A stretch of DNA of 64,000 bases, taken from the sequence record PZ386972.1; one strand, given 5' to 3'. The stretch's first letter is position 1, and the number at the start of each line of letters is the position of its first letter. The notes beneath the pieces were generated by a model. That model had not been told where the DNA came from. It searched no databases and saw nothing but the letters and a program-made list of their open reading frames with translations. Below are positions 3,498 to 31,611 of this stretch, one piece after another. Both the position numbers and the translations under genes were made by a program. This stretch comes from a phage.

Positions 3498-3926
3498 TTA
3501 AGCAGTTAAACCTGGGATCATATACCCGAAACGTCGAAGTTTCTGAATCCCATCATTTACTTCTTCCGGTGAGTAAGACCAACCGTAACGTTCATTAACC
3601 TGAAAACCAGGAGATTCACTAGTTTTATAGTTAACAACAAGGCGATGCTTAGCAGGCATAAACAGCTTATAGTTTAACGCAAAAACTAAGCCCATTTCAT
3701 CTAACTCTTTCCAGCCGACAATTTCTTCAAGACCCTCCTCTACCTGAACAATTAAACCAATACAGGGAGCCTCATCAATATCATCTTTAAAAGCAAAGGA
3801 GATTTCGTTATTCTCACACCATATTTTCAAAGAGTTAATAGCCTCATTATATAGGCTAGCTGGGAGAGTACGCCAAAAGTTAACCAAAATTGGGTTAGCT
3901 TCTTTAGAGAATACATTATTGAACAT
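3498..3926 (-). CDS. hypothetical protein, paralog of 3096..3488
   Basis: ORF track; tandem arrangement with 10 nt spacing; shared motifs with neighbour. Confidence 0.5.
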   Translation of the reverse strand: MFNNVFSKEANPILVNFWRTLPASLYNEAINSLKIWCENNEISFAFKDDIDEAPCIGLIVQVEEGLEEIVGWKELDEMGLVFALNYKLFMPAKHRLVVNYKTSESPGFQVNERYGWSYSPEEVNDGIQKLRRFGYMIPGLTA

Positions 3927-21239: not shown

Positions 21240-22029
21240 TAAATTAGGGAACAGCGAGCCGATTACGCTGAGTGCAGAATCCCAACCGGAGCGCATTGAA
21301 TAGAGTCGGTGGGTTAGTTGTAAAACTAGTACACAGGGGGCGGCAATCCCGGTTAGTGGCTAGAACGTGTAAAATGAGGCGTCTGAAACCTCTCCCCTAA
21401 ACTCTTCTCTGATTTATAAATAGTGGGGTGTGGAAATCACTTATGTAGTAACACTGCCGTCCTAGTATAATTGGTATTATCAAGCCGTAACTGGTGGAAG
21501 ATGTAGGTTCGAATCCTACGGTCGGTAAGAACTGGATAACTGATGCTTTTAACGTAAAAGCTTCCTAGGTTAGTTGCGCACTGCCTAAACCACGCGGTAG
21601 TTGGTTCCAGACTAACCAACCAGTCTGCTGAATAGTTTTATTACGATTTAACTATGTCCAGGCTAAAGAAGAACTTTAGAAGGTATTCTAGGATAGTGAA
21701 GTTCTTTCTCCATATCGGAGTAGTTTTTCAAGCTATCCACAAAGTGGGAAATGCTGACATGAGAGATGTCACTAATGGTGCACAATAGCACAGGTAATTC
21801 GCGATAACTCCTGTTGAGTAGCAGCAAAAGGTGGGAAGTCATGACCCCAAGCCTAACCGAGTCCTCAATATACCGCAGGACATAACCACTAAGTCACCCT
21901 GACTTAAACTGGAAAATAATAGACGTTACTGTATTTTGTCTTGAAATACTTAATGAGTGAGACTTATGACTCTCCCGGTATCGTCTGTATTTTTAAGAGT
22001 TTTTACGAGAGTTCTTAAAAATACTTAAA
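21240..22029 (+). ncRNA. about 790 nt structured non-coding transcript region (candidate stable RNAs)
   Basis: No ORF of 60 aa or more on plus strand; multiple hairpins such as AAGAACTT/AAGTTCTT and TTTTTAAGAGT/GAGTTCTTAAAAA; lies between promoter and first tRNA. Confidence 0.3.
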
Positions 22030-27124: not shown

Positions 27125-27229
27125 CCAAATTCTGTGTAGAGTTAAGTAAACCGGTAGCCAACCAGCTATCATTGCTGACATCGAATTCAGCCACAGATAC
27201 CATTTTCATTAATAACTGAGGAAACAAGC

Positions 27230-28128: not shown

Positions 28129-28250
28129 CAAAATTTCAGTGCAGAACACGGAGCTAGCAATTCGGAAGTGCTGACTCATGATAGGCTGCCTATGTACTTG
28201 CGAAGCGGTCGTGTCCAAGACTCGGACTCTTGCACTGAAAACAATCAAAC

Positions 28251-28368
28251 ATTCTAGCGTGGTTGATGGGGAAACCAGCTTGGCTAGGGCAGAAGCTCGT
28301 TCGATTCGAGTGAAAGAATGGTTCTCGTAAGTCCGCACAAGTGATAACAGGTTCGAGTCCTGTCTAGA
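28251..28368 (+). ncRNA. 118-nt tRNA-like RNA: perfect 7-bp acceptor-like stem and canonical T-arm, no encoded CCA
   Basis: 5' ATTCTAG pairs with 3' CTAGAAT; T-arm ACAGG-TTCGAGT-CCTGT; internal second TTCGATT hairpin. Confidence 0.35.
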
Positions 28369-28383
28369 ATGACACTATAAAGT

Positions 28384-28494
28384 TTACTTATTATGTAGGT
28401 TCCGATAGATCGGCGGGTCTATTCTGGCATTTAAGAGAGGTCTCGCAAACTTCTTTGTCAGCCGTGGGGTTGATAGCCTCCAGGTGGCCTACAC
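28384..28494 (+). ncRNA. about 110-nt structured RNA closed by terminal helix
   Basis: 5' TGTAGGT pairs with 3' GCCTACA; internal hairpins; no ORF. Confidence 0.3.
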
Positions 28495-28520
28495 AATAAG
28501 TAAATTTATTAAAAATTCAT

Positions 28521-28549
28521 TTGCTATTCTGCTTAATTATCTGTATAAT
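28521..28549 (+). promoter_or_regulatory. T5-type early promoter
   Basis: TTGCTA-17-TATAAT. Confidence 0.6.
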
Positions 28550-28579
28550 ATATTTTATAAAGTGAGTTAACAAAATTAA

Positions 28580-28652
28580 CAGTGCGTAGCGCAGTTGGTA
28601 GCGTGGGAGCCTTGGATGCTTCGGGTCGCAGGTTCGAGTCCTGCCGCACTGA
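28580..28652 (+). tRNA. tRNA-Pro (anticodon TGG)
   Basis: Acceptor CAGTGCG/CGCACTG, D-arm GCGC...GCGT, loop CTTGGAT, T-arm GCAGG-TTCGAGT-CCTGC, CCA encoded. Confidence 0.75.
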
Positions 28653-28661
28653 CCAAACAAT

Positions 28662-28736
28662 TGCGGGTTAGATCTCTGGTAGAGATCGCTAGTCTCATAA
28701 GCTAGAAAGAGGTAGGTTCGATTCCTGCACCCGCTT
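28662..28736 (+). tRNA. tRNA with CAT anticodon (Met or Ile2)
   Basis: D-arm GATC...GATC, anticodon stem CTAGT/GCTAG, loop CTCATAA, TTCGATT T-loop, CCA encoded; 1-72 U-U mismatch. Confidence 0.6.
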
Positions 28737-28759
28737 CCATTTTAATAGAGGATTTCGAA

Positions 28760-28927
28760 ATGAAAGTATTTCGATTAGTAGTAAGTGACAAACGTTTAGG
28801 TAAGAATACCTCAAAATCCTTACTTGCTCATTATGGAAAAGATGAGAAAGAAGTAATGGCGGAGTTTGGGATTAATCACCCTTACTTGAAAGTTCACTCT
28901 ATTAAAGAAGTATATAATGGTTACTAA
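28760..28927 (+). CDS. small hypothetical protein (55 aa)
   Basis: ATG with GAGGA RBS between two tRNAs; below track cutoff. Confidence 0.3.
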   Translation: MKVFRLVVSDKRLGKNTSKSLLAHYGKDEKEVMAEFGINHPYLKVHSIKEVYNGY

Positions 28928-28928
28928 T

Positions 28929-29004
28929 AGATCGCTAGCTCAATAGGTTTAGTAGCATCCGACTTTTAATCGGAAGGTTCTGGGTTCGAGTCCCAGGCGA
29001 TCTA
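28929..29004 (+). tRNA. tRNA-Lys (anticodon TTT)
   Basis: Acceptor AGATCGC/GCGATCT, anticodon stem TCCGA/TCGGA, loop CTTTTAA, T-arm CTGGG-TTCGAGT-CCCAG, CCA encoded. Confidence 0.8.
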
Positions 29005-29026
29005 CCAATTTCAAGAAAAACGCAGT

Positions 29027-29054
29027 TGCTTGATGCTTAATTTCTTGTTATAAT
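29027..29054 (+). promoter_or_regulatory. T5-type early promoter
   Basis: TTGCTT-16-TATAAT. Confidence 0.55.
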
Positions 29055-29104
29055 ATTTATATAAATTGATGAGGATTTCTCCTCATCATAGTTCACTAAG
29101 GTAT

Positions 29105-29268
29105 TAGCTCGACCTAGGACTGGCTGCCAAAAAGCACGATCCCTACGATTCGGGAGAAGTTCTAGATTAGTCCACTAGATTCAGCGGCAACTGAATAGTG
29201 TATCGGGTTTGCGAGATGACGCGGTTCCTTCCGCTCGAAGCGAAGGTGCTGTAGTTACGCCGAGCTAA
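29105..29268 (+). ncRNA. about 165-nt structured RNA closed by TAGCTCG/CGAGCTA helix
   Basis: Long-range complementary 7-mers plus internal hairpins; no ORF. Confidence 0.3.
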
Positions 29269-29292
29269 TAGCCTTAGTAAACTAAAGAATTT

Positions 29293-29368
29293 GGGGAATG
29301 GGTCTGCATGGAGTGGACACCTCGCTTGCACCGAGGACATCAGAACGGTTCGATTCCGTTATTCTCCA
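29293..29368 (+). tRNA. tRNA-Ala (anticodon TGC)
   Basis: Acceptor GGGGAAT/ATTCTCC with G3-U70 wobble, anticodon stem CCTCG/CGAGG, loop CTTGCAC, T-arm AACGG-TTCGATT-CCGTT, CCA encoded. Confidence 0.75.
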
Positions 29369-29376
29369 CCAAATAC

Positions 29377-29450
29377 GCGTGATTGATGGAATTGGCATAC
29401 ATACCGTCCTTAGAAGTCGGGTTTTGAGGGTTCGAATCCCTTGTCACGCA
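29377..29450 (+). tRNA. tRNA with TAG anticodon (Leu by anticodon) but class I architecture
   Basis: Acceptor GCGTGAT/GTCACGC, loop CTTAGAA, 5-nt variable loop, T-arm GAGGG-TTCGAAT-CCCTT, discriminator A, CCA encoded; weak D stem. Confidence 0.5.
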
Positions 29451-29453
29451 CCA

Positions 29454-29565
29454 AATTTGATGGTCAGAGTAAATTAAACCTACTATCTCGGTTGAGCTGT
29501 TTTAATGGGTTCGAATCCCAGCGAGGCGTAACTGCCTGGCGTGATAGAGGCATCATCTTATTATT
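29454..29565 (+). ncRNA. about 110-nt segment containing an orphan T-arm-like hairpin (tRNA-like fragment or small RNA)
   Basis: TGGG-TTCGAAT-CCCA hairpin with no matching acceptor stem or CCA; AGGCGTAACTGCCT hairpin. Confidence 0.25.
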
Positions 29566-29653
29566 GGAAGAGCAAATCGAATTGGCGACGAAAACCGCTT
29601 GGAAAGTGGCTGACTGGTAAAACGGCTTGAGAGTTCAAATCTCTCCTCTTCCG
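29566..29653 (+). tRNA. tRNA-Ser (anticodon GGA), class II
   Basis: Acceptor GGAAGAG/CTCTTCC, loop TTGGAAA, long variable arm, T-arm GAGAG-TTCAAAT-CTCTC, CCA encoded. Confidence 0.7.
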
Positions 29654-29668
29654 CCAAACAATTTATAT

Positions 29669-29760
29669 GGTAGGTCAATCCAATGGCTGGCGCTGGACTC
29701 CGACTTGAAATCGGTTGATCGTAGTGATACGGTGTAAGGGTTCGATCCCCTTACCTACCT
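29669..29760 (+). tRNA. tRNA-Ser (anticodon TGA), class II
   Basis: Acceptor GGTAGGT/ACCTACC, loop CTTGAAA, long variable arm, T-arm AAGGG-TTCGATC-CCCTT, CCA encoded. Confidence 0.7.
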
Positions 29761-29764
29761 CCAA

Positions 29765-29910
29765 GTCTTGAAGTATGCCGGAATCGGTAGACGGGGCTGC
29801 CTAAAAGGTTTATAGGGAACATCCACTCCCTACAACATACCTCATAAAGCGGCTGAGATAAATGGTCTATCTCGTGAAGGTTCAAGTCCTTCTGCTTCTT
29901 GATACATCTA
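29765..29910 (+). ncRNA. about 145-nt structured segment with D-arm-like and T-arm-like hairpins but no complete cloverleaf
   Basis: GAGATA-AATGGTC-TATCTC and GAAGG-TTCAAGT-CCTTC hairpins; no CCA. Confidence 0.25.
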
Positions 29911-30014
29911 TGGCTCAAAGTGTAACGGTGCTATTTGATGCTCTTAGTAAGACTTTCCCGACATGCGTTCGGGAGTAAGCTGCTAAGGCTAGAATAGAAG
30001 AGTTTCTGAGAGCC

Positions 30015-30134
30015 GCCACAATTGAAAATTCGTACTCGTCTTGAGCTGCGTGCAATAGGAGATAACTTGATTAGTATTCTAGAACATGCTAATTGAGGAT
30101 GGTTTCGCTAACCCTGCGAGTTTTCAATTGTGGC
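30015..30134 (+). ncRNA. structured element closed by a perfect 14-bp helix whose 3' strand overlaps the 5' end of tRNA-His
   Basis: GCCACAATTGAAAA at about 30015-30028 is the exact reverse complement of TTTTCAATTGTGGC at about 30121-30134. Confidence 0.4.
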
Positions 30135-30203
30135 TATATCATAATTGGTTAATGATCCTGATTGTGAATCAGGCCTATGTGGATTCGAATTCCACTAGCC
30201 ACC
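30130..30203 (+). tRNA. tRNA-His (anticodon GTG)
   Basis: Acceptor GTGGCTA/TAGCCAC, anticodon stem CCTGA/TCAGG, loop TTGTGAA, T-arm GTGGA-TTCGAAT-TCCAC, discriminator C, CCA encoded. Confidence 0.8.
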
Positions 30204-30231
30204 CCAAATTAACTTAAATAGGAAATAAAAT

Positions 30232-30429
30232 ATGGCTGATTTCTGCAAACAATGCTCCATTGATATGTGGGGCAGAGATACTGGTGATCTTTCTGGTTTG
30301 ATTACAGAAGCTGAGGTCAAAGAAGGTTATGGTGCAGTTGTGATTTGCGAAGGATGCGGAGTTATTCGAGTAGATCATGAAGGCAAACGTTTAGAAGAAC
30401 AGGAAAACTTAGGAGAAACAAATGAGTAA
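30232..30429 (+). CDS. small Cys-containing protein
   Basis: ORF track. Confidence 0.4.
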   Translation: MADFCKQCSIDMWGRDTGDLSGLITEAEVKEGYGAVVICEGCGVIRVDHEGKRLEEQENLGETNE

Positions 30430-30658
30430 TGCTTTAATTAGTGAAATTATGTTAACACGTCTTGCAGAACTGCAAACTCTTCGAGATGAATCTCAGAATA
30501 ACTTAGCCTACCATAAACAGATGGTAGATACTCTTACTACTCGTATTGATACTTACGAGCGTGATATTGCAGCATTACAAGCTCTTTTCTCTGTATCAGC
30601 ACCAGATACGTTAGAACAGCCTGCTGTATCTCAGCCAGTAGAAACAGCATCTAGCTAA
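30422..30658 (+). CDS. hypothetical coiled-coil protein
   Basis: ORF track; overlaps upstream stop. Confidence 0.4.
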   Translation: MSNALISEIMLTRLAELQTLRDESQNNLAYHKQMVDTLTTRIDTYERDIAALQALFSVSAPDTLEQPAVSQPVETASS

Positions 30659-30667
30659 TAGCATTCT

Positions 30668-30740
30668 TGGGATGTAGATCAATTGGCAGATCGTCGGCCT
30701 CTGACTCCGAAGGTTCCACGTTCGATCCGTGGCATCCCAG
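30668..30740 (+). tRNA. tRNA-Gln (anticodon CTG)
   Basis: Acceptor TGGGATG/CATCCCA, D-arm GATC...GATC, loop CTCTGAC, T-arm CCACG-TTCGATC-CGTGG, discriminator G, CCA encoded. Confidence 0.7.
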
Positions 30741-30749
30741 CCAAACAAT

Positions 30750-30822
30750 TGGAGAGTAGTGTAACGGTTAGCACAACGGCCTTTGACTCCGTTAATGGTA
30801 GGTTCGATTCCTCCTTCTCCAG
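30750..30822 (+). tRNA. tRNA-Gln (anticodon TTG)
   Basis: Acceptor TGGAGAG/TTCTCCA, loop CTTTGAC, TTCGATT T-loop, discriminator G, CCA encoded. Confidence 0.65.
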
Positions 30823-30833
30823 CCAAGTAATAA

Positions 30834-30906
30834 GCGGTTAAGCACACGGGTTGTGTCGCAGGCCTTCCAAGCCTCGCTGAGTAGGGTTCGATTCCCTCTA
30901 GCCGCT
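30834..30906 (+). tRNA. tRNA-Gly (anticodon TCC)
   Basis: Acceptor GCGGTTA/TAGCCGC, loop CTTCCAA, TTCGATT T-loop, CCA encoded. Confidence 0.6.
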
Positions 30907-30925
30907 CCAACTTTAAGGAAACATT

Positions 30926-31177
30926 ATGCACGTTTTTGAGTTTCGTAATAAAAGTACCGATAAACGAGTTATTGTTATTGGAGAAACATACCGAGCATAC
31001 GAACAAACTGACGGCTCTGTTATCCTAAACGATGAGAAAGGAGGTTTTAGCTTTTATCCAGAAGAACCTTATGAAGAGTTTCGAAAACAATTTAACCTAG
31101 ACTGGAGAAAGCATTTAAACACTGTTGCTTCATCTGTAGTATTGCCAACTACCAGTACTGTACTCTCTAATGGCTGA
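30926..31177 (+). CDS. hypothetical protein
   Basis: ORF track. Confidence 0.4.
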   Translation: MHVFEFRNKSTDKRVIVIGETYRAYEQTDGSVILNDEKGGFSFYPEEPYEEFRKQFNLDWRKHLNTVASSVVLPTTSTVLSNG

Positions 31178-31342
31178 TAACCTAAAAGTCAAGATCGATA
31201 AACAAAAGAAACGTGTAGAAGTAGAGATTGGTGAAGAACGTGTAGCCTTCACCTTTGAATTTCTACAACAAATGGCAATGGCGGTTATGACTGATAAGTC
31301 TCCTGTTATTGAAAAAGAAATCCCGTTGAAATAACGGGTTCT

Positions 31343-31426
31343 GCTGGGTTGGCAGAATGGTTGAATGCACCTGATTTGTAATCAGGAGGAGTAATCCCGT
31401 TGCAGGTTCGAATCCTGTGCCCAGCA
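31343..31426 (+). tRNA. tRNA with TGT anticodon (Thr) and long 15-nt variable arm
   Basis: Acceptor GCTGGGT/GCCCAGC, anticodon stem CCTGA/TCAGG, loop TTTGTAA, T-arm GCAGG-TTCGAAT-CCTGT, CCA encoded. Confidence 0.55.
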
Positions 31427-31611
31427 CCAACTTAAGGACTATTATGTTTAAATTATTAGTAGTTATCTGGTATAGTCAATCAAATAGAGCGAATACCTCC
31501 CACGTTATAGACTTTAATACTAAAAATGAAGCTGAAAAAGCATATTCTAATTTAATAGAACGTAATAAAGAATCTCGTAGTATAGTTTATGAAGTGACTA
31601 AACTTTATTAA
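31417..31611 (+). CDS. small hypothetical protein (track start overlaps tRNA 3' end; true start probably the internal ATG)
   Basis: ORF track. Confidence 0.3.
   Translation: MPSTNLRTIMFKLLVVIWYSQSNRANTSHVIDFNTKNEAEKAYSNLIERNKESRSIVYEVTKLY

What the first reader, a model, noticed from the sequence alone, without database searches (positions are those of the whole stretch)
29454..29910. Two tRNA-like fragments (orphan T-arms) embedded between bona fide tRNAs
29454-29565 carries TGGG-TTCGAAT-CCCA and 29765-29910 carries GAAGG-TTCAAGT-CCTTC plus a D-arm-like hairpin, but neither can be folded into a full cloverleaf with CCA by eye. They may be decayed tRNA genes, unusual tRNAs (intron-containing or split), or regulatory mimics.
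Basis: seen in the sequence. Interest (0 to 1): 0.45.

Follow-up and report, generated by a model that had tools for sequence, protein, structure and literature searches.

The report
Two conserved phage tRNA-mimic RNAs
The two "orphan T-arms" in this T5-like phage's tRNA cluster are not decayed tRNA genes: one is the known but unexplained T5 stable RNA "RNA1", and the other is a conserved, apparently undescribed ~98-nt tRNA-like RNA that reference phage T5 lacks because a homing-endonuclease gene sits in its place.

Summary
The window is a T5-like phage (Tequintavirus), and both observed motifs are real at the stated coordinates. Fragment 2 (29767-29911) is the ortholog of T5/BF23 RNA1, which the curated records annotate as a "tRNA-like stable RNA with unknown functions". 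It folds as a class II-type cloverleaf with a 41-48-nt elaboration replacing the anticodon loop and has no CCA. Of its 39 consensus pairs, 15 show compensatory changes. This part is already known. Fragment 1 (29458-29555, within the tRNA-Leu to tRNA-Ser spacer) has no counterpart in T5, where the HNH endonuclease gene hegC fills the slot. It is unannotated even in the curated BF23 record and matches no Rfam family. It is nevertheless conserved in phage tRNA clusters of Tequintavirus, Klebsiella, Pectobacterium and Erwinia T5-like phages, a T4-like Erwinia phage and uncultured phages. A covariance model seeded from two lineages recovers all the others. 99.4% of cells pair, against about 40% in slid controls, and 17 of 23 pairs show double changes. 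Its architecture is a T-arm abutting a capped acceptor-like hairpin in a four-way junction closed by long-range helices. This resembles the tRNA-like module of bacterial YrlA, with different strand topology. Function is inferred only: a non-chargeable tRNA mimic released by tRNA processing, perhaps a decoy for tRNA-binding proteins.

The parts
29377..29453 (+). tRNA-Leu(UAG), upstream neighbour. Its CCA is followed directly by fragment 1.
   Evidence: ARAGORN; Rfam tRNA model, 47.5 bits.
29454..29565 (+). It is the presumed released RNA after an endonucleolytic cut in AAUUU 3' of the tRNA-Leu CCA and an RNase P cut at the tRNA-Ser 5' end. The biogenesis is inferred.
   Evidence: Boundaries from the flanking tRNAs. 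100-97% identical in many Tequintavirus records.
29458..29555 (+). Core of the new tRNA-like RNA family, referred to here as element X: 98 model positions and 23 modelled base pairs.
   Evidence: Covariance model R1, 128 bits, E=1.4e-28. Model R2, 118 bits, and the only significant hit in the window.
29458..29462 (+). X P1 5' strand (UGAUG), which pairs with 29551-29555 (CAUCA). This is the terminal stem. It is 5-14 bp long and completely different in sequence in other lineages.
   Evidence: All 5 pairs show double changes and 100% of cells pair. Manual alignment.
29463..29478 (+). X 5' internal loop J1/2. It ends in an invariant AA. CAG at 29465-29467 is a tentative pseudoknot partner of CUG at 29497-29499.
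   Evidence: Alignment. Complementarity test: summed run of 19 nt, 0/5000 shuffles, post hoc.
29479..29487 (+). X P2 5' strand: CCU, an invariant bulged A at 29482, then CUAUC. It pairs with 29543-29550 (GAUAG-AGG).
   Evidence: All 8 pairs have double changes and 98.1% of cells pair. Erwinia phage KEY adds a CCC/GGG variant.
29488..29505 (+). X P3 region (UCGGUUGAG, a short weak hairpin with a nearly invariant GG) plus the linker CUGUUUUAA, in which UUUAA is invariant.
   Evidence: Conservation line of Infernal's alignment. The P3 pairing itself is weak and was not modelled.
29506..29520 (+). X P4, the T-arm mimic: UGGG / UUCGAAU / CCCA.
   Evidence: The two outer pairs covary (UA/CG and GC/AU).
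29521..29540 (+). X P5, a capped acceptor-like hairpin that abuts the T stem with no linker: GCGAGGC - GUAACU - GCCUGGC. It is 7 bp here, with an invariant G.G at the third pair. The cap varies in length in other lineages.
   Evidence: The T-arm / 0 nt / capped hairpin / 2 nt module is the same as in the Rfam YrlA consensus.
29541..29555 (+). X 2-nt RU linker (GU), the P2 3' strand (GAUAGAGG) and the P1 3' strand (CAUCA).
29566..29656 (+). tRNA-Ser(GGA), missed by default ARAGORN.
   Evidence: ARAGORN -ps80; T5_ev212 annotation; homolog of T5 tRNAS2.
29669..29763 (+). tRNA-Ser(UGA), missed by default ARAGORN.
   Evidence: ARAGORN -ps80/-ps90; Rfam clan hit of 37.6 bits; T5_ev212 annotation.
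29767..29911 (+).
   Evidence: BLAST of the annotated T5 RNA1, 1-144 matching 29767-29911 at 84%, inside a collinear 93.6% block that runs on to tRNA-His. T5 and BF23 annotate it as a 'tRNA-like stable RNA with unknown functions'.
29770..29775 (+). RNA1 acceptor-like stem 5' strand (GAAGUA), which pairs with 29893-29898 (UGCUUC). No CCA follows.
   Evidence: RNAalifold pairs at columns 5-10/128-133, five with double changes. MFE fold z=-2.68.
29776..29793 (+). RNA1 D-arm-like segment, GCCGGAAUCGGUAGACGG. It resembles a class II, tRNA-Leu-type D arm with GG in the loop.
   Evidence: alignment to T5 tRNA-Leu1 and E. coli tRNA-Leu.
29795..29854 (+). RNA1 elaborated 'anticodon' arm. A 5-6-bp basal stem (29795-29800 with 29849-29854) carries a 41-48-nt insertion. 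The insertion contains an inner helix and an apical hairpin whose loop, ACAUCCAC (29819-29826), is identical in 12 of the 13 variants aligned (T5 itself reads ACAUCCGC).
   Evidence: ARAGORN -i reports an intron of 41 nt at position 37. Covarying stems and a nearly invariant loop.
29855..29873 (+). RNA1 variable-arm hairpin, GAGAUA-AAUGGUC-UAUCUC, with a nearly invariant loop.
29876..29892 (+). RNA1 T-arm: GAAGG / UUCAAGU / CCUUC.
29912..30128 (+). Orthologs of T5 RNAI (29912-30018, GGCUC...GAGCCGCCA) and RNAIII (30023-30128). They continue the same transcript up to tRNA-His at 30130-30206.
   Evidence: BLAST to the T5 features at 93% and 100%. T5 annotation.

Best explanation
The flagged interval holds two different non-coding RNAs that imitate parts of tRNA and are maintained by selection. 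They are not gene wreckage.

Shown. (a) 29767-29911 is the ortholog of T5/BF23 RNA1. It is a class II-tRNA-shaped RNA in which the anticodon loop is replaced by a conserved 41-48-nt structured insertion, and it has no CCA. (b) 29458-29555 is a member of a conserved ~98-nt RNA family (element X) found only inside phage tRNA gene clusters, on the tRNA strand. In X, a T-arm is directly continuous with a capped acceptor-like hairpin, and both sit in a four-way junction closed by two covarying long-range helices. T5 itself lacks X because the HNH endonuclease gene hegC occupies the Leu-to-Ser slot.

Inferred. Both RNAs are transcribed as part of the polycistronic tRNA precursor from the promoter that T5 annotates as P13b. 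They are freed by the enzymes that mature the neighbouring tRNAs: RNase P at the 5' end of the next tRNA or tRNA-like RNA, and an endonucleolytic cut in the A/U-rich sequence after the upstream CCA. Their terminal stems then protect them from exonucleases. They have no free, chargeable CCA end and no conserved anticodon, so they cannot decode. What they conserve is the T-arm/acceptor-side surface and elbow elements of tRNA. They therefore most likely work in trans as tRNA mimics that occupy or divert a protein that recognises tRNA shape, such as a host tRNA-targeting nuclease or a processing or modification enzyme. This would fit the documented anti-defence role of T5's tRNA cluster. The stated confidence covers the package 'selected, structured, non-decoding tRNA mimics'. 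The trans-acting decoy step alone deserves about 0.25.
For: Identity of the phage and of RNA1: megablast to Tequintavirus genomes; the T5 and BF23 curated annotations; a collinear 93.6% block; feature-by-feature mapping.

RNA1 structure: MFE z=-2.68. RNAalifold on 13 variants gives 39 pairs, 15 with compensatory changes, and two nearly invariant loops. ARAGORN -i gives a cloverleaf with a 41-nt insertion. With the insertion removed, the best resemblance is to class II tRNAs.

Element X. Conservation: it is present in 252 phage records, in divergent metagenomic lineages and in Erwinia phage KEY. Location: it is always within tRNA clusters, on the tRNA strand. Detection: a covariance model seeded only from lineages A and D finds lineages B, C, E, F and G full-length at 37-81 bits. 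Structure: 99.4% of cells pair against 35-44% when partners are slid, 17 of 23 pairs have double changes and 0/500 shuffles reach the observed values. The hand alignment agrees. Invariant unpaired residues cluster around the T-arm/P5 stack.

Non-coding, single transcription unit: there is no credible ORF and no internal terminator other than the T-arm look-alikes.

Absence from T5: hegC sits at 31022-31606 between tRNA-Leu and tRNA-Ser2. BLAST finds no T5 counterpart and the models find no hit in the 20-kb T5 region.

Context for a tRNA-related anti-defence role: T5 tRNA-Lys neutralises PARIS and T5 tRNA-Tyr counters retron Eco7 (PMC11464382; PMC10644984).

Precedent for capped-acceptor tRNA mimics: YrlA (PMC4201824; Rfam consensus).
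Against: There is no expression, processing or binding data for X. The BF23 curators annotated eight stable RNAs but left the X-containing 112-nt gap blank, so X may not accumulate to the level of those RNAs. T5 does well without X, and T5 deletion mutants lacking RNA1 are viable. DNA fragments other than the tRNA-Lys one did not rescue PARIS sensitivity. Both RNAs are therefore accessory, and RNA1 is not the PARIS suppressor. The single-sequence fold of X is not more stable than shuffles (z=-0.82). The pair statistics come from an alignment fitted to the model, and many sequences are close relatives. Only about 7-8 independent lineages exist. A purely cis role in precursor processing would explain the same conservation.
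Confidence: 0.6

Rival explanations
1. Cis-acting processing elements. The structured spacers exist only to organise maturation of the polycistronic tRNA precursor. They would position RNase P or RNase E cuts, block exonucleases, or prevent misfolding between neighbouring tRNAs, and would have no function once released.
For: X always lies between tRNAs on the same strand and starts right after an upstream CCA in T5-like phages and in L039. The T-arm plus 7-bp stacked helix is the kind of shape RNase P measures; YrlA with a 7-bp capped stem is cut by RNase P (PMC4201824). RNA1, RNAI and RNAIII are packed end to end with tRNAs.
Against: The flanking tRNAs differ between lineages (Leu/Ser, Met/Met, Arg/Asn, Thr/Leu) while the X core is invariant. 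T5 matures the same tRNA-Leu and tRNA-Ser without X. In L035 an ORF separates X from the next tRNA. Conserved loops, such as ACAUCCAC in RNA1, are hard to explain by a spacer role.
Confidence: 0.25
2. Unusual but functional tRNAs. RNA1 would be an intron-containing tRNA that is spliced. X would be cut in its P5 loop, as M. smegmatis YrlA is, and would receive CCA to give a two-piece chargeable tRNA-like molecule.
For: ARAGORN -i folds 29769-29900 as a tRNA with a 41-nt insertion at the canonical 37/38 position. P5 of X is exactly 7 bp in Tequintavirus. RNase P cleavage plus CCA addition is documented for one YrlA.
Against: The RNA1 'anticodon' and position 33 vary between lineages. 41-48 nt is far too short for a bacterial group I intron, and Rfam finds no intron. 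T5 and BF23 annotate the full 144 nt as the stable species. P5 length is not conserved, ranging from about 6 to more than 11 bp in other lineages. X has no anticodon arm.
Confidence: 0.06
3. Decayed tRNA pseudogenes or neutral leftovers of homing-endonuclease traffic in the tRNA cluster.
For: The region is a hot spot for HNH endonuclease insertions. X is dispensable in T5. RNA1 clearly descends from a class II tRNA.
Against: X is 97-100% identical across many Tequintavirus genomes and is recognisable in other genera, other families and uncultured phages. Compensatory changes occur in 17 of 23 pairs for X and 15 of 39 for RNA1. Neutral remnants would not preserve pairing.
Confidence: 0.03
4. 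Y-RNA-like tether. X would be a phage version of YrlA that binds a Ro60/Rsr protein and recruits an exonuclease.
For: X shares the T-arm / 0 nt / capped hairpin / 2 nt module with the YrlA consensus. YrlA-like RNAs were reported in 22 phages (PMC4201824).
Against: The Rfam YrlA model gives no hit on X in any lineage at E<=10. X has no D-arm hairpin after the capped stem. The Rsr-binding motif GNCGAA is not present in X (read directly from the sequence). YrlA genes lie next to rsr, whereas X lies in tRNA clusters.
Confidence: 0.04

Closest known systems
Bacteriophage T5 / BF23 RNA1 (T5s03; misc_RNA 'tRNA-like stable RNA with unknown functions', NC_005859 30501-30644)
   Same: Fragment 2 is its ortholog. 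It occupies the same position (after tRNA-Ser(UGA), before RNAI, RNAIII and tRNA-His), is 84% identical, and has the same covarying fold.
   Different: Only sequence-level divergence. This phage also lacks the small ORF T5.063 that separates tRNA-Ser1 from RNA1 in T5.
YrlA, bacterial Y-RNA-like tRNA mimic (Rfam RF02553; Chen et al. 2014, PMC4201824)
   Same: X shares the design principle: a T-arm (GGUUCGAAUCC) continuous with an acceptor-like helix that is closed by a loop, so there is no CCA end; then a 2-nt linker; with the RNA termini in a long closing stem.
   Different: In YrlA the 2-nt linker leads into a D-arm hairpin. In X it leads into the 3' strand of a long-range helix (P2), and the small GG-containing hairpin lies 5' of the T-arm. 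X has no Ro-binding motif, no rsr neighbour and no score against the YrlA model. X works like a YrlA tRNA-like module at most. It is not a member.
Bacteriophage T4 species 1 RNA (rnaC) and species 2 RNA (rnaD)
   Same: They are stable RNAs of unknown function encoded at the end of a phage tRNA cluster and processed with the tRNAs. rnaC has a T-arm, a weak acceptor stem, a long elaborated arm and a variable-arm hairpin, much like RNA1.
   Different: There is no detectable homology. The X models score rnaC at 12-15 bits (E 0.45-0.8), from the T-arm only. rnaD has no T-arm in its fold.
Canonical class II tRNAs (Leu, Ser, Tyr)
   Same: RNA1 keeps the acceptor stem, a Leu-type D arm (GGAAUYGGUAGAC), a 5-bp anticodon stem, a long variable arm and a T-arm.
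   Different: The anticodon loop is replaced by a 41-48-nt structured insertion, position 33 and the triplet are not conserved, and there is no CCA. Every ARAGORN-called tRNA whose sequence was read here (Lys, Ala, Leu, the two Ser, His) ends in an encoded CCA.
tmRNA tRNA-like domain and mascRNA-type tRNA mimics
   Same: They also use a T-arm/acceptor stack and are processed by tRNA enzymes (established knowledge; PMC4201824 discussion).
   Different: tmRNA and mascRNA have free acceptor ends. X is capped. ARAGORN's tmRNA mode and the Rfam tmRNA models find nothing beyond the 15-nt T-arm.

Membership tests
T5 RNA1 stable RNA (fragment 2) | Sequence homology and synteny with the annotated T5/BF23 RNA1 | tested here: met
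   T5 RNA1 positions 1-144 match window 29767-29911 at 84%, inside a collinear 93.6% block. The neighbours are the same as in T5 and BF23.
T5 RNA1 stable RNA (fragment 2) | Conserved extended-cloverleaf secondary structure | tested here: met
   RNAalifold gives 39 pairs, 15 with compensatory changes. MFE z=-2.68.
T5 RNA1 stable RNA (fragment 2) | Accumulates as a discrete stable RNA in infected cells | not testable with these tools
   Known only from the T5 and BF23 record notes. There are no data for this phage.
Canonical tRNA (Rfam RF00005 / ARAGORN) | Scores as a standard cloverleaf | tested here: not met
   No call on either fragment by default ARAGORN or by Rfam tRNA at E<=10. X is not called in any relaxed or intron mode. 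RNA1 is called only with the intron option.
Canonical tRNA (Rfam RF00005 / ARAGORN) | Conserved 7-nt anticodon loop with U33 and a fixed anticodon | tested here: not met
   In RNA1, position 33 is U, G or C and the triplet is AAA, AAU or AAC across lineages. X has no anticodon arm.
Canonical tRNA (Rfam RF00005 / ARAGORN) | Free acceptor end with CCA, encoded or addable | tested here: not met
   The acceptor-like helix of X is closed by a loop. The RNA1 3' strand is followed by UUGAUAC, whereas every ARAGORN-called tRNA whose sequence was read here (Lys, Ala, Leu, two Ser, His) encodes CCA.
YrlA / bacterial Y RNA (RF02553) | Match to the family covariance model | tested here: not met
   No YrlA hit overlaps X in the window or in lineages B, D, F and G at E<=5-10.
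YrlA / bacterial Y RNA (RF02553) | T-arm immediately followed by a capped acceptor-like hairpin and a 2-nt linker | tested here: met
   Compare the YrlA consensus line with the X alignment: 0-nt and 2-nt (RU) linkers.
YrlA / bacterial Y RNA (RF02553) | D-arm hairpin 3' of the capped stem; Ro-binding GNCGAA motif; adjacency to an rsr gene | tested here: not met
   After the linker, X goes straight into the P2 and P1 3' strands. The motif is absent on direct reading of the sequence. The neighbours are tRNAs. The window was not searched for a TROVE-domain protein.
tmRNA (standard or permuted) | tRNA-like domain plus tag reading frame | tested here: not met
   ARAGORN -m finds none. The Rfam tmRNA hit is only the 15-nt T-arm.
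Group I intron-containing tRNA | Self-splicing intron (over 200 nt, P1-P9 core) in the anticodon loop | tested here: not met
   The insertion is 41-48 nt. There is no Rfam intron hit in 28500-30700.
New family 'element X' (defined here) | P1-J-P2 (with bulged A) closing a junction that holds UUUAA, the T-arm, and a capped P5 with a G.G pair; located in a phage tRNA cluster | tested here: met
   Window 29458-29555 scores 128 bits (R1) and 118 bits (R2). Pair statistics. Genomic context.

The most novel reading that the evidence does not exclude
Element X founds a previously unrecognised class of phage-encoded tRNA mimics. Its cloverleaf is circularly permuted or re-wired: the acceptor end is capped and the termini emerge from the D-stem side. 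It spreads among unrelated phages within tRNA clusters. It would act as an anti-defence decoy that binds and neutralises a host tRNA-targeting immune nuclease, or another enzyme that reads the tRNA elbow. RNA1 would be a second, independently evolved decoy of the same kind.
Probability: 0.15. Interest if true: 0.8.

Novelty: new variant of a known kind. Interest (0 to 1): 0.5.

Why it matters
Phage tRNA clusters have recently been shown to be counter-defence arsenals. T5 tRNA-Lys neutralises PARIS and T5 tRNA-Tyr counters a retron toxin. The non-tRNA "stable RNAs" interleaved with these tRNAs have been known for about 40 years in T4 and T5 and still have no function. This analysis gives the first comparative, covariation-backed structures for one of them (RNA1). 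It also uncovers another, element X, that the T5 reference hides because a homing endonuclease gene replaced it. X is small and strongly conserved. It is present in easily handled phages (BF23, DT57C, many Salmonella and E. coli T5-like phages) and naturally absent from T5, which provides a ready-made genetic contrast. If X or RNA1 proves to be a decoy for tRNA-binding proteins, RNA-based tRNA mimicry would join the list of phage anti-defence strategies. More practically, annotators currently call spurious "hypothetical proteins" over X, and default ARAGORN misses three real tRNAs in this cluster.

Tried and rejected
1. Fragment 1 as the displaced 3' half of tRNA-Leu after endonuclease insertion. 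There is no similarity to the T5 or window tRNA-Leu 3' halves, and X follows both the class I-like and the class II tRNA-Leu variants unchanged.

2. Single-sequence folding of X. The fold is uninformative (z=-0.82) and the MFE does not even form the T-arm. The structure had to come from comparison.

3. MAFFT alignment of all lineages. It mis-registers the P2 5' strand. I solved this by seeding the covariance model from two gap-free lineages and letting Infernal align the rest.

4. Rfam at permissive thresholds on the window and on four divergent loci. No family matches X, RNA1, RNAI, RNAIII or RNA2H.

5. Paralogy of X with T5 RNA2, RNA3 or RNAIV, or with T4 rnaC or rnaD. There are no significant covariance-model hits.

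6. Bacterial homologs. The first pattern found 0 hits in 185,579 species genomes. A looser pattern found 39 hits, which are ordinary tRNA 3' ends; the best scores 30 bits and is a tRNA-Asn.

7. Looser patterns on viral contigs added no new lineages.

8. Targets complementary to the nearly invariant RNA1 loops. There are no GUGGAUGU or GACCAUU sites of note on the transcribed strand. The other ACATCCAC copies lie in coding sequence and do not form the hairpin.

9. The 261-kb 'jumbo' Klebsiella record as a new host lineage. It merely contains a Sugarlandvirus-type tRNA cluster.

10. Coding potential. Only short ORFs that run through tRNAs are present.

11. Literature searches for prior descriptions of X, or for a function of the T5 stable RNAs, found nothing in the held library. 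The original 1980s T5 papers are not in that library.
Full report
**1. What the window is**

Megablast of 28900-30250 hits 525 phage records. The best are Salmonella and Escherichia T5-like phages (Demerecviridae, Tequintavirus) at 98-99.6% identity. ARAGORN finds 22 tRNA genes on the + strand between 22030 and 32428, so the finding lies inside the well-known T5-type tRNA gene region.

**2. Checking the observation**

The sequence and a T-arm scan confirm both motifs: TGGG-TTCGAAT-CCCA at 29506-29520 and GAAGG-TTCAAGT-CCTTC at 29876-29892.

- Default ARAGORN calls nothing between 29454 and 30129.
- At a relaxed threshold it recovers tRNA-Ser(GGA) at 29566-29656 and tRNA-Ser(UGA) at 29669-29763. 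Both are annotated in T5_ev212 and correspond to T5 tRNAS2 and tRNAS1.
- Fragment 1 is therefore exactly the Leu-to-Ser spacer, and fragment 2 begins just after the second tRNA-Ser.
- Neither fragment is a standard tRNA for ARAGORN or for the Rfam tRNA model at E<=10.

**3. Fragment 2 is T5 RNA1**

The curated T5 reference (NC_005859) and the st0 record annotate three misc_RNAs between tRNA-Ser1 and tRNA-His:

- RNA1, 144 nt, 'tRNA-like stable RNA with unknown functions'
- RNAI, 107 nt
- RNAIII, 106 nt

Window 29763-30250 is collinear with T5 30648-30162 at 93.6% identity. The individual features map as follows:

| T5 feature | Window coordinates |
|---|---|
| RNA1 | 29767-29911 |
| RNAI | 29912-30018 |
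| RNAIII | 30023-30128 |

*Fold.* The RNA folds significantly better than shuffles (z=-2.68). The fold has these parts:

- a 6-bp acceptor-like stem
- a D-like arm
- a long arm with a 5-6-bp base
- a variable-arm hairpin
- a T-arm

*Comparative support.* I compared thirteen variants from Tequintavirus, Epseptimavirus, a Pectobacterium phage and Klebsiella Sugarlandviruses. They give a consensus of 39 pairs, 15 with compensatory double changes. Two loops are nearly invariant. ACAUCCAC (29819-29826) is identical in 12 of the 13 variants, and T5 itself reads ACAUCCGC. AAUGGUC (29861-29867) has one variant, in a Klebsiella phage.

*Relation to tRNA.* Intron-aware ARAGORN reads 29769-29900 as a cloverleaf with a 41-nt insertion at position 37/38. 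With that insertion removed, the RNA most resembles class II tRNAs, and its D arm is Leu-like. It is still not a decoding tRNA:

- Position 33 and the 'anticodon' differ between lineages.
- No CCA follows, although every ARAGORN-called tRNA whose sequence I read here (Lys, Ala, Leu, the two Ser, His) encodes CCA.
- The insertion is far too short for a group I intron, and Rfam finds none.
- T5 and BF23 annotate the full length as the stable species.

T4 species 1 RNA (rnaC) has an analogous design but no detectable homology. This half of the finding is already known, with its function still unknown.

**4. Fragment 1 is something T5 does not have**

In T5 the Leu-to-Ser2 slot is filled by hegC, an HNH endonuclease gene at 31022-31606. 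BLAST finds no T5 counterpart of 29454-29565. The 112 nt are nevertheless present in 252 phage records:

- 97-100% identical in many Tequintavirus genomes
- 78% in Pectobacterium phage DU_PP_V
- about 80% over the 3' two-thirds in Klebsiella Sugarlandviruses
- a partial match in the T4-like Erwinia phage IT22

Pattern scans added uncultured lineages L030, L039 and L032/L036/L041. BLAST from those added Erwinia phage KEY.

In every case the element lies in a tRNA cluster, on the tRNA strand, between tRNAs. The flanking pairs are Leu/Ser, Met/Met, Arg/Asn and Thr/Leu. No bacterial genome carries it.

**5. Structure of fragment 1 (element X)**

The lineages differ in helix sequence but keep the pairing.

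*Hand alignment.* A hand-curated structural alignment of 13 sequences from 7 lineages shows 2-5 canonical pair types per position in P1, P2 and the outer T-stem, with almost no broken pairs.

*Independent test.* To remove my own registration bias, I built a covariance model from lineages A and D only. It finds lineages B, C, E, F and G, and KEY, as full-length matches of 37-81 bits. On Infernal's own alignment:

- 99.4% of cells pair, against 35-44% when partners are slid by 1-3 columns.
- 17 of 23 pairs carry double changes.
- None of 500 shuffles reaches any observed measure.

Caveats: the alignment is fitted to the model, and there are only about 7-8 independent lineages.

*Architecture, in window coordinates.*

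| Element | Coordinates | Description |
|---|---|---|
| P1 | 29458-62 / 29551-55 | Terminal stem |
| J1/2 | 29463-78 | 5' internal loop |
| P2 | 29479-87 / 29543-50 | 3 bp, an invariant bulged A, then 5 bp |
| P3 | within 29488-96 | Weak hairpin with a conserved GG |
| Linker | 29497-505 | Ends in an invariant UUUAA |
| P4 | 29506-20 | The T-arm |
| P5 | 29521-40 | 7-bp capped hairpin, no linker to P4, invariant G.G at the third pair |
| Linker | 29541-42 | 2-nt RU linker back to P2 |

P2 closes a four-way junction that contains P3, P4 and P5. The invariant unpaired residues cluster around the P4/P5 stack.

*Possible pseudoknot.* There may be an extra pairing between J1/2 and the segment before UUUAA. 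The paired sequences are CAG/CUG, CAGUG/CACUG, GCAG/CUGC, AACC/GGUU and CCG/CGG in different lineages. It beats shuffles (summed run of 19 nt, 0/5000), but the test was devised after seeing the data.

**6. What X resembles**

*Linker comparison.* Read cyclically from the T-arm, the junction linkers of X are 0, 2, 0-1 and 7-9 nt. Those of tRNA are 0, 2, 1 and 4-5 or more (T to acceptor, acceptor to D, D to anticodon, anticodon to T).

*First mapping.* One consistent reading is a circularly permuted cloverleaf:

- P5 corresponds to the acceptor stem, capped by a loop.
- P2 corresponds to the D stem, opened and extended into P1.
- P3 corresponds to an anticodon stub.

*Second mapping.* The alternative is that the GG-containing P3 is a D-arm analog. 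I cannot decide between the two without 3D data.

*YrlA.* The nearest described design is the tRNA-like module of bacterial YrlA. Its Rfam consensus is stem - 4 nt - T-arm - 0 nt - capped hairpin - 2 nt - D-arm - stem. The paper describing it notes different arm orders in different Y RNAs, and RNase P cleavage when the capped stem has 7 bp. X is not a YrlA:

- The YrlA model does not hit X in any lineage.
- X has no D hairpin after the capped stem.
- X has no Ro-binding motif and no rsr neighbour.

A second, broader model (R2) finds only one copy in the window. It finds nothing significant in 20 kb of T5 or in the T4 tRNA region. X is therefore not a paralog of RNA2, RNA3, RNAIV, rnaC or rnaD.

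**7. Is X known?**

- Rfam 15 has no matching family.
- The records listed under the BLAST hits annotate nothing, or spurious 'hypothetical proteins', over it.
- The expert-curated BF23 tRNA-region record (NC_042564) annotates eight stable RNAs, all promoters and even the ribosome-binding sites. It leaves the 112-nt Leu-to-Ser2 gap (3769-3880) blank. That is exactly where the model places X (L013 3779-3876).
- Full-text searches found no description.

I conclude that X is undescribed, with the caveat that the 1980s T5/BF23 literature is not in the searchable library.

**8. How it probably works**

*Shown:* both RNAs are selected, structured and non-coding. They lie in one terminator-free stretch downstream of the promoter T5 calls P13b.

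*Inferred:*

- They are released from the polycistronic precursor by the enzymes that mature the neighbouring tRNAs. X starts 4 nt after a CCA within a conserved AAUUU and ends 10 nt before the RNase P site of tRNA-Ser.
- Their terminal stems stabilise them.
- Lacking a chargeable end and an anticodon, they present tRNA-like surfaces to proteins. The most likely role is as competitors or decoys.

The tRNA cluster's documented role in neutralising tRNA-cleaving defences makes a defence-related target attractive, but nothing here tests it.

*Evidence against a major role:* T5 lacks X. T5 mutants deleted for RNA1, RNAI and RNAIII are viable, and that region does not rescue PARIS sensitivity.

*Main rival:* a purely cis role in precursor processing. 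Decay, a spliced or split functional tRNA, and a Y-RNA role are each unlikely for the reasons given in the rival entries.

**9. Verdict**

- Half of the finding is already known (T5 RNA1).
- The other half is a well-supported new RNA family of a known general kind. That kind is the tRNA-like stable RNAs of phage tRNA clusters, and X also resembles the capped-acceptor tRNA mimics.

Interest is moderate. The structure is solid, X is naturally absent from T5, which gives a ready genetic contrast, and the function is open.

Noticed in passing
window 29566-29656, 29669-29763, 30834-30909: Default ARAGORN misses three genuine tRNA genes: Ser(GGA), Ser(UGA) and Gly(UCC). The Gly gene is 100% identical to T5 tRNAG1. 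They are recovered with -ps80. Automated annotations of T5-like phages therefore under-count tRNAs.
   Followed up: yes
window 29377-29453: The tRNA-Leu(UAG) here is 77 nt with a 5-nt variable loop, which is a class I shape, and has a U.U mismatch in the anticodon stem. T5's tRNA-Leu1 is a normal 85-nt class II tRNA. BF23 has the same short gene, and its curated note says a CUA-anticodon version is an effective amber suppressor. Which synthetase charges a class I-shaped 'Leu' tRNA is an open question.
   Followed up: partly
window 21400-22029, 27130-27202, 28250-28374, 28393-28495, 29102-29273, 29912-30018, 30023-30128: Orthologs of all the other T5 stable RNAs are present: RNAX, RNA3, RNA2, RNAIV, RNA2H, RNAI and RNAIII. 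RNAX carries an orphan T-arm at 21503-21519 and RNA2 carries two (28295-28311 and 28347-28363). RNAI starts GGCUC and ends GAGCCGCCA, which is an acceptor stem with an encoded CCA. For the four that lie within the Rfam-scanned stretch 28500-30700 (RNA2H, RNA1, RNAI, RNAIII), no family matched. The others were not scanned.
   Followed up: partly
L088 (Erwinia phage KEY) 785-1248; several Tequintavirus records: Annotated 'hypothetical protein' CDSs (key_098 and key_099, among others) lie over element X. X scores 81 bits at L088 983-1075. These are probably spurious gene calls over a structured RNA.
   Followed up: partly
L089 (PP355768.1, Klebsiella phage vB_Kpn_AM_K6, 261 kb, filed under Straboviridae): This record contains a tRNA cluster with the same order as Sugarlandvirus (Demerecviridae) phages (Gln-Glu-Ala-Leu-X-Ser-Ser-His-Arg). 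The X element scores the same as in those phages (68.1 bits). The record may be a chimeric assembly of two phages.
   Followed up: no
L039 5137-6408 (metagenome contig Ga0308160_10000997): An uncultured phage has a dense array of six tRNA-Asn(GUU), two tRNA-Ser(GCU) and two tRNA-Arg(ACG) genes within 1.3 kb. Element X sits between an Arg and an Asn copy. This may be a segmental amplification of a tRNA block.
   Followed up: no
L035 1526-1780 and L037: In two metagenomic Tequintavirus-like contigs a short ORF is inserted between element X and the next tRNA-Ser. It replaces the usual 10-nt tail. This shows that the slot next to X is an insertion hot spot, as with hegC in T5.
   Followed up: partly
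window 29763-29767 compared with T5 30651-30824: This phage lacks the small ORF T5.063 (174 nt) that separates tRNA-Ser1 from RNA1 in T5, BF23, OSYSP and STG2. Here RNA1 follows tRNA-Ser(UGA) after 3 nt.
   Followed up: no
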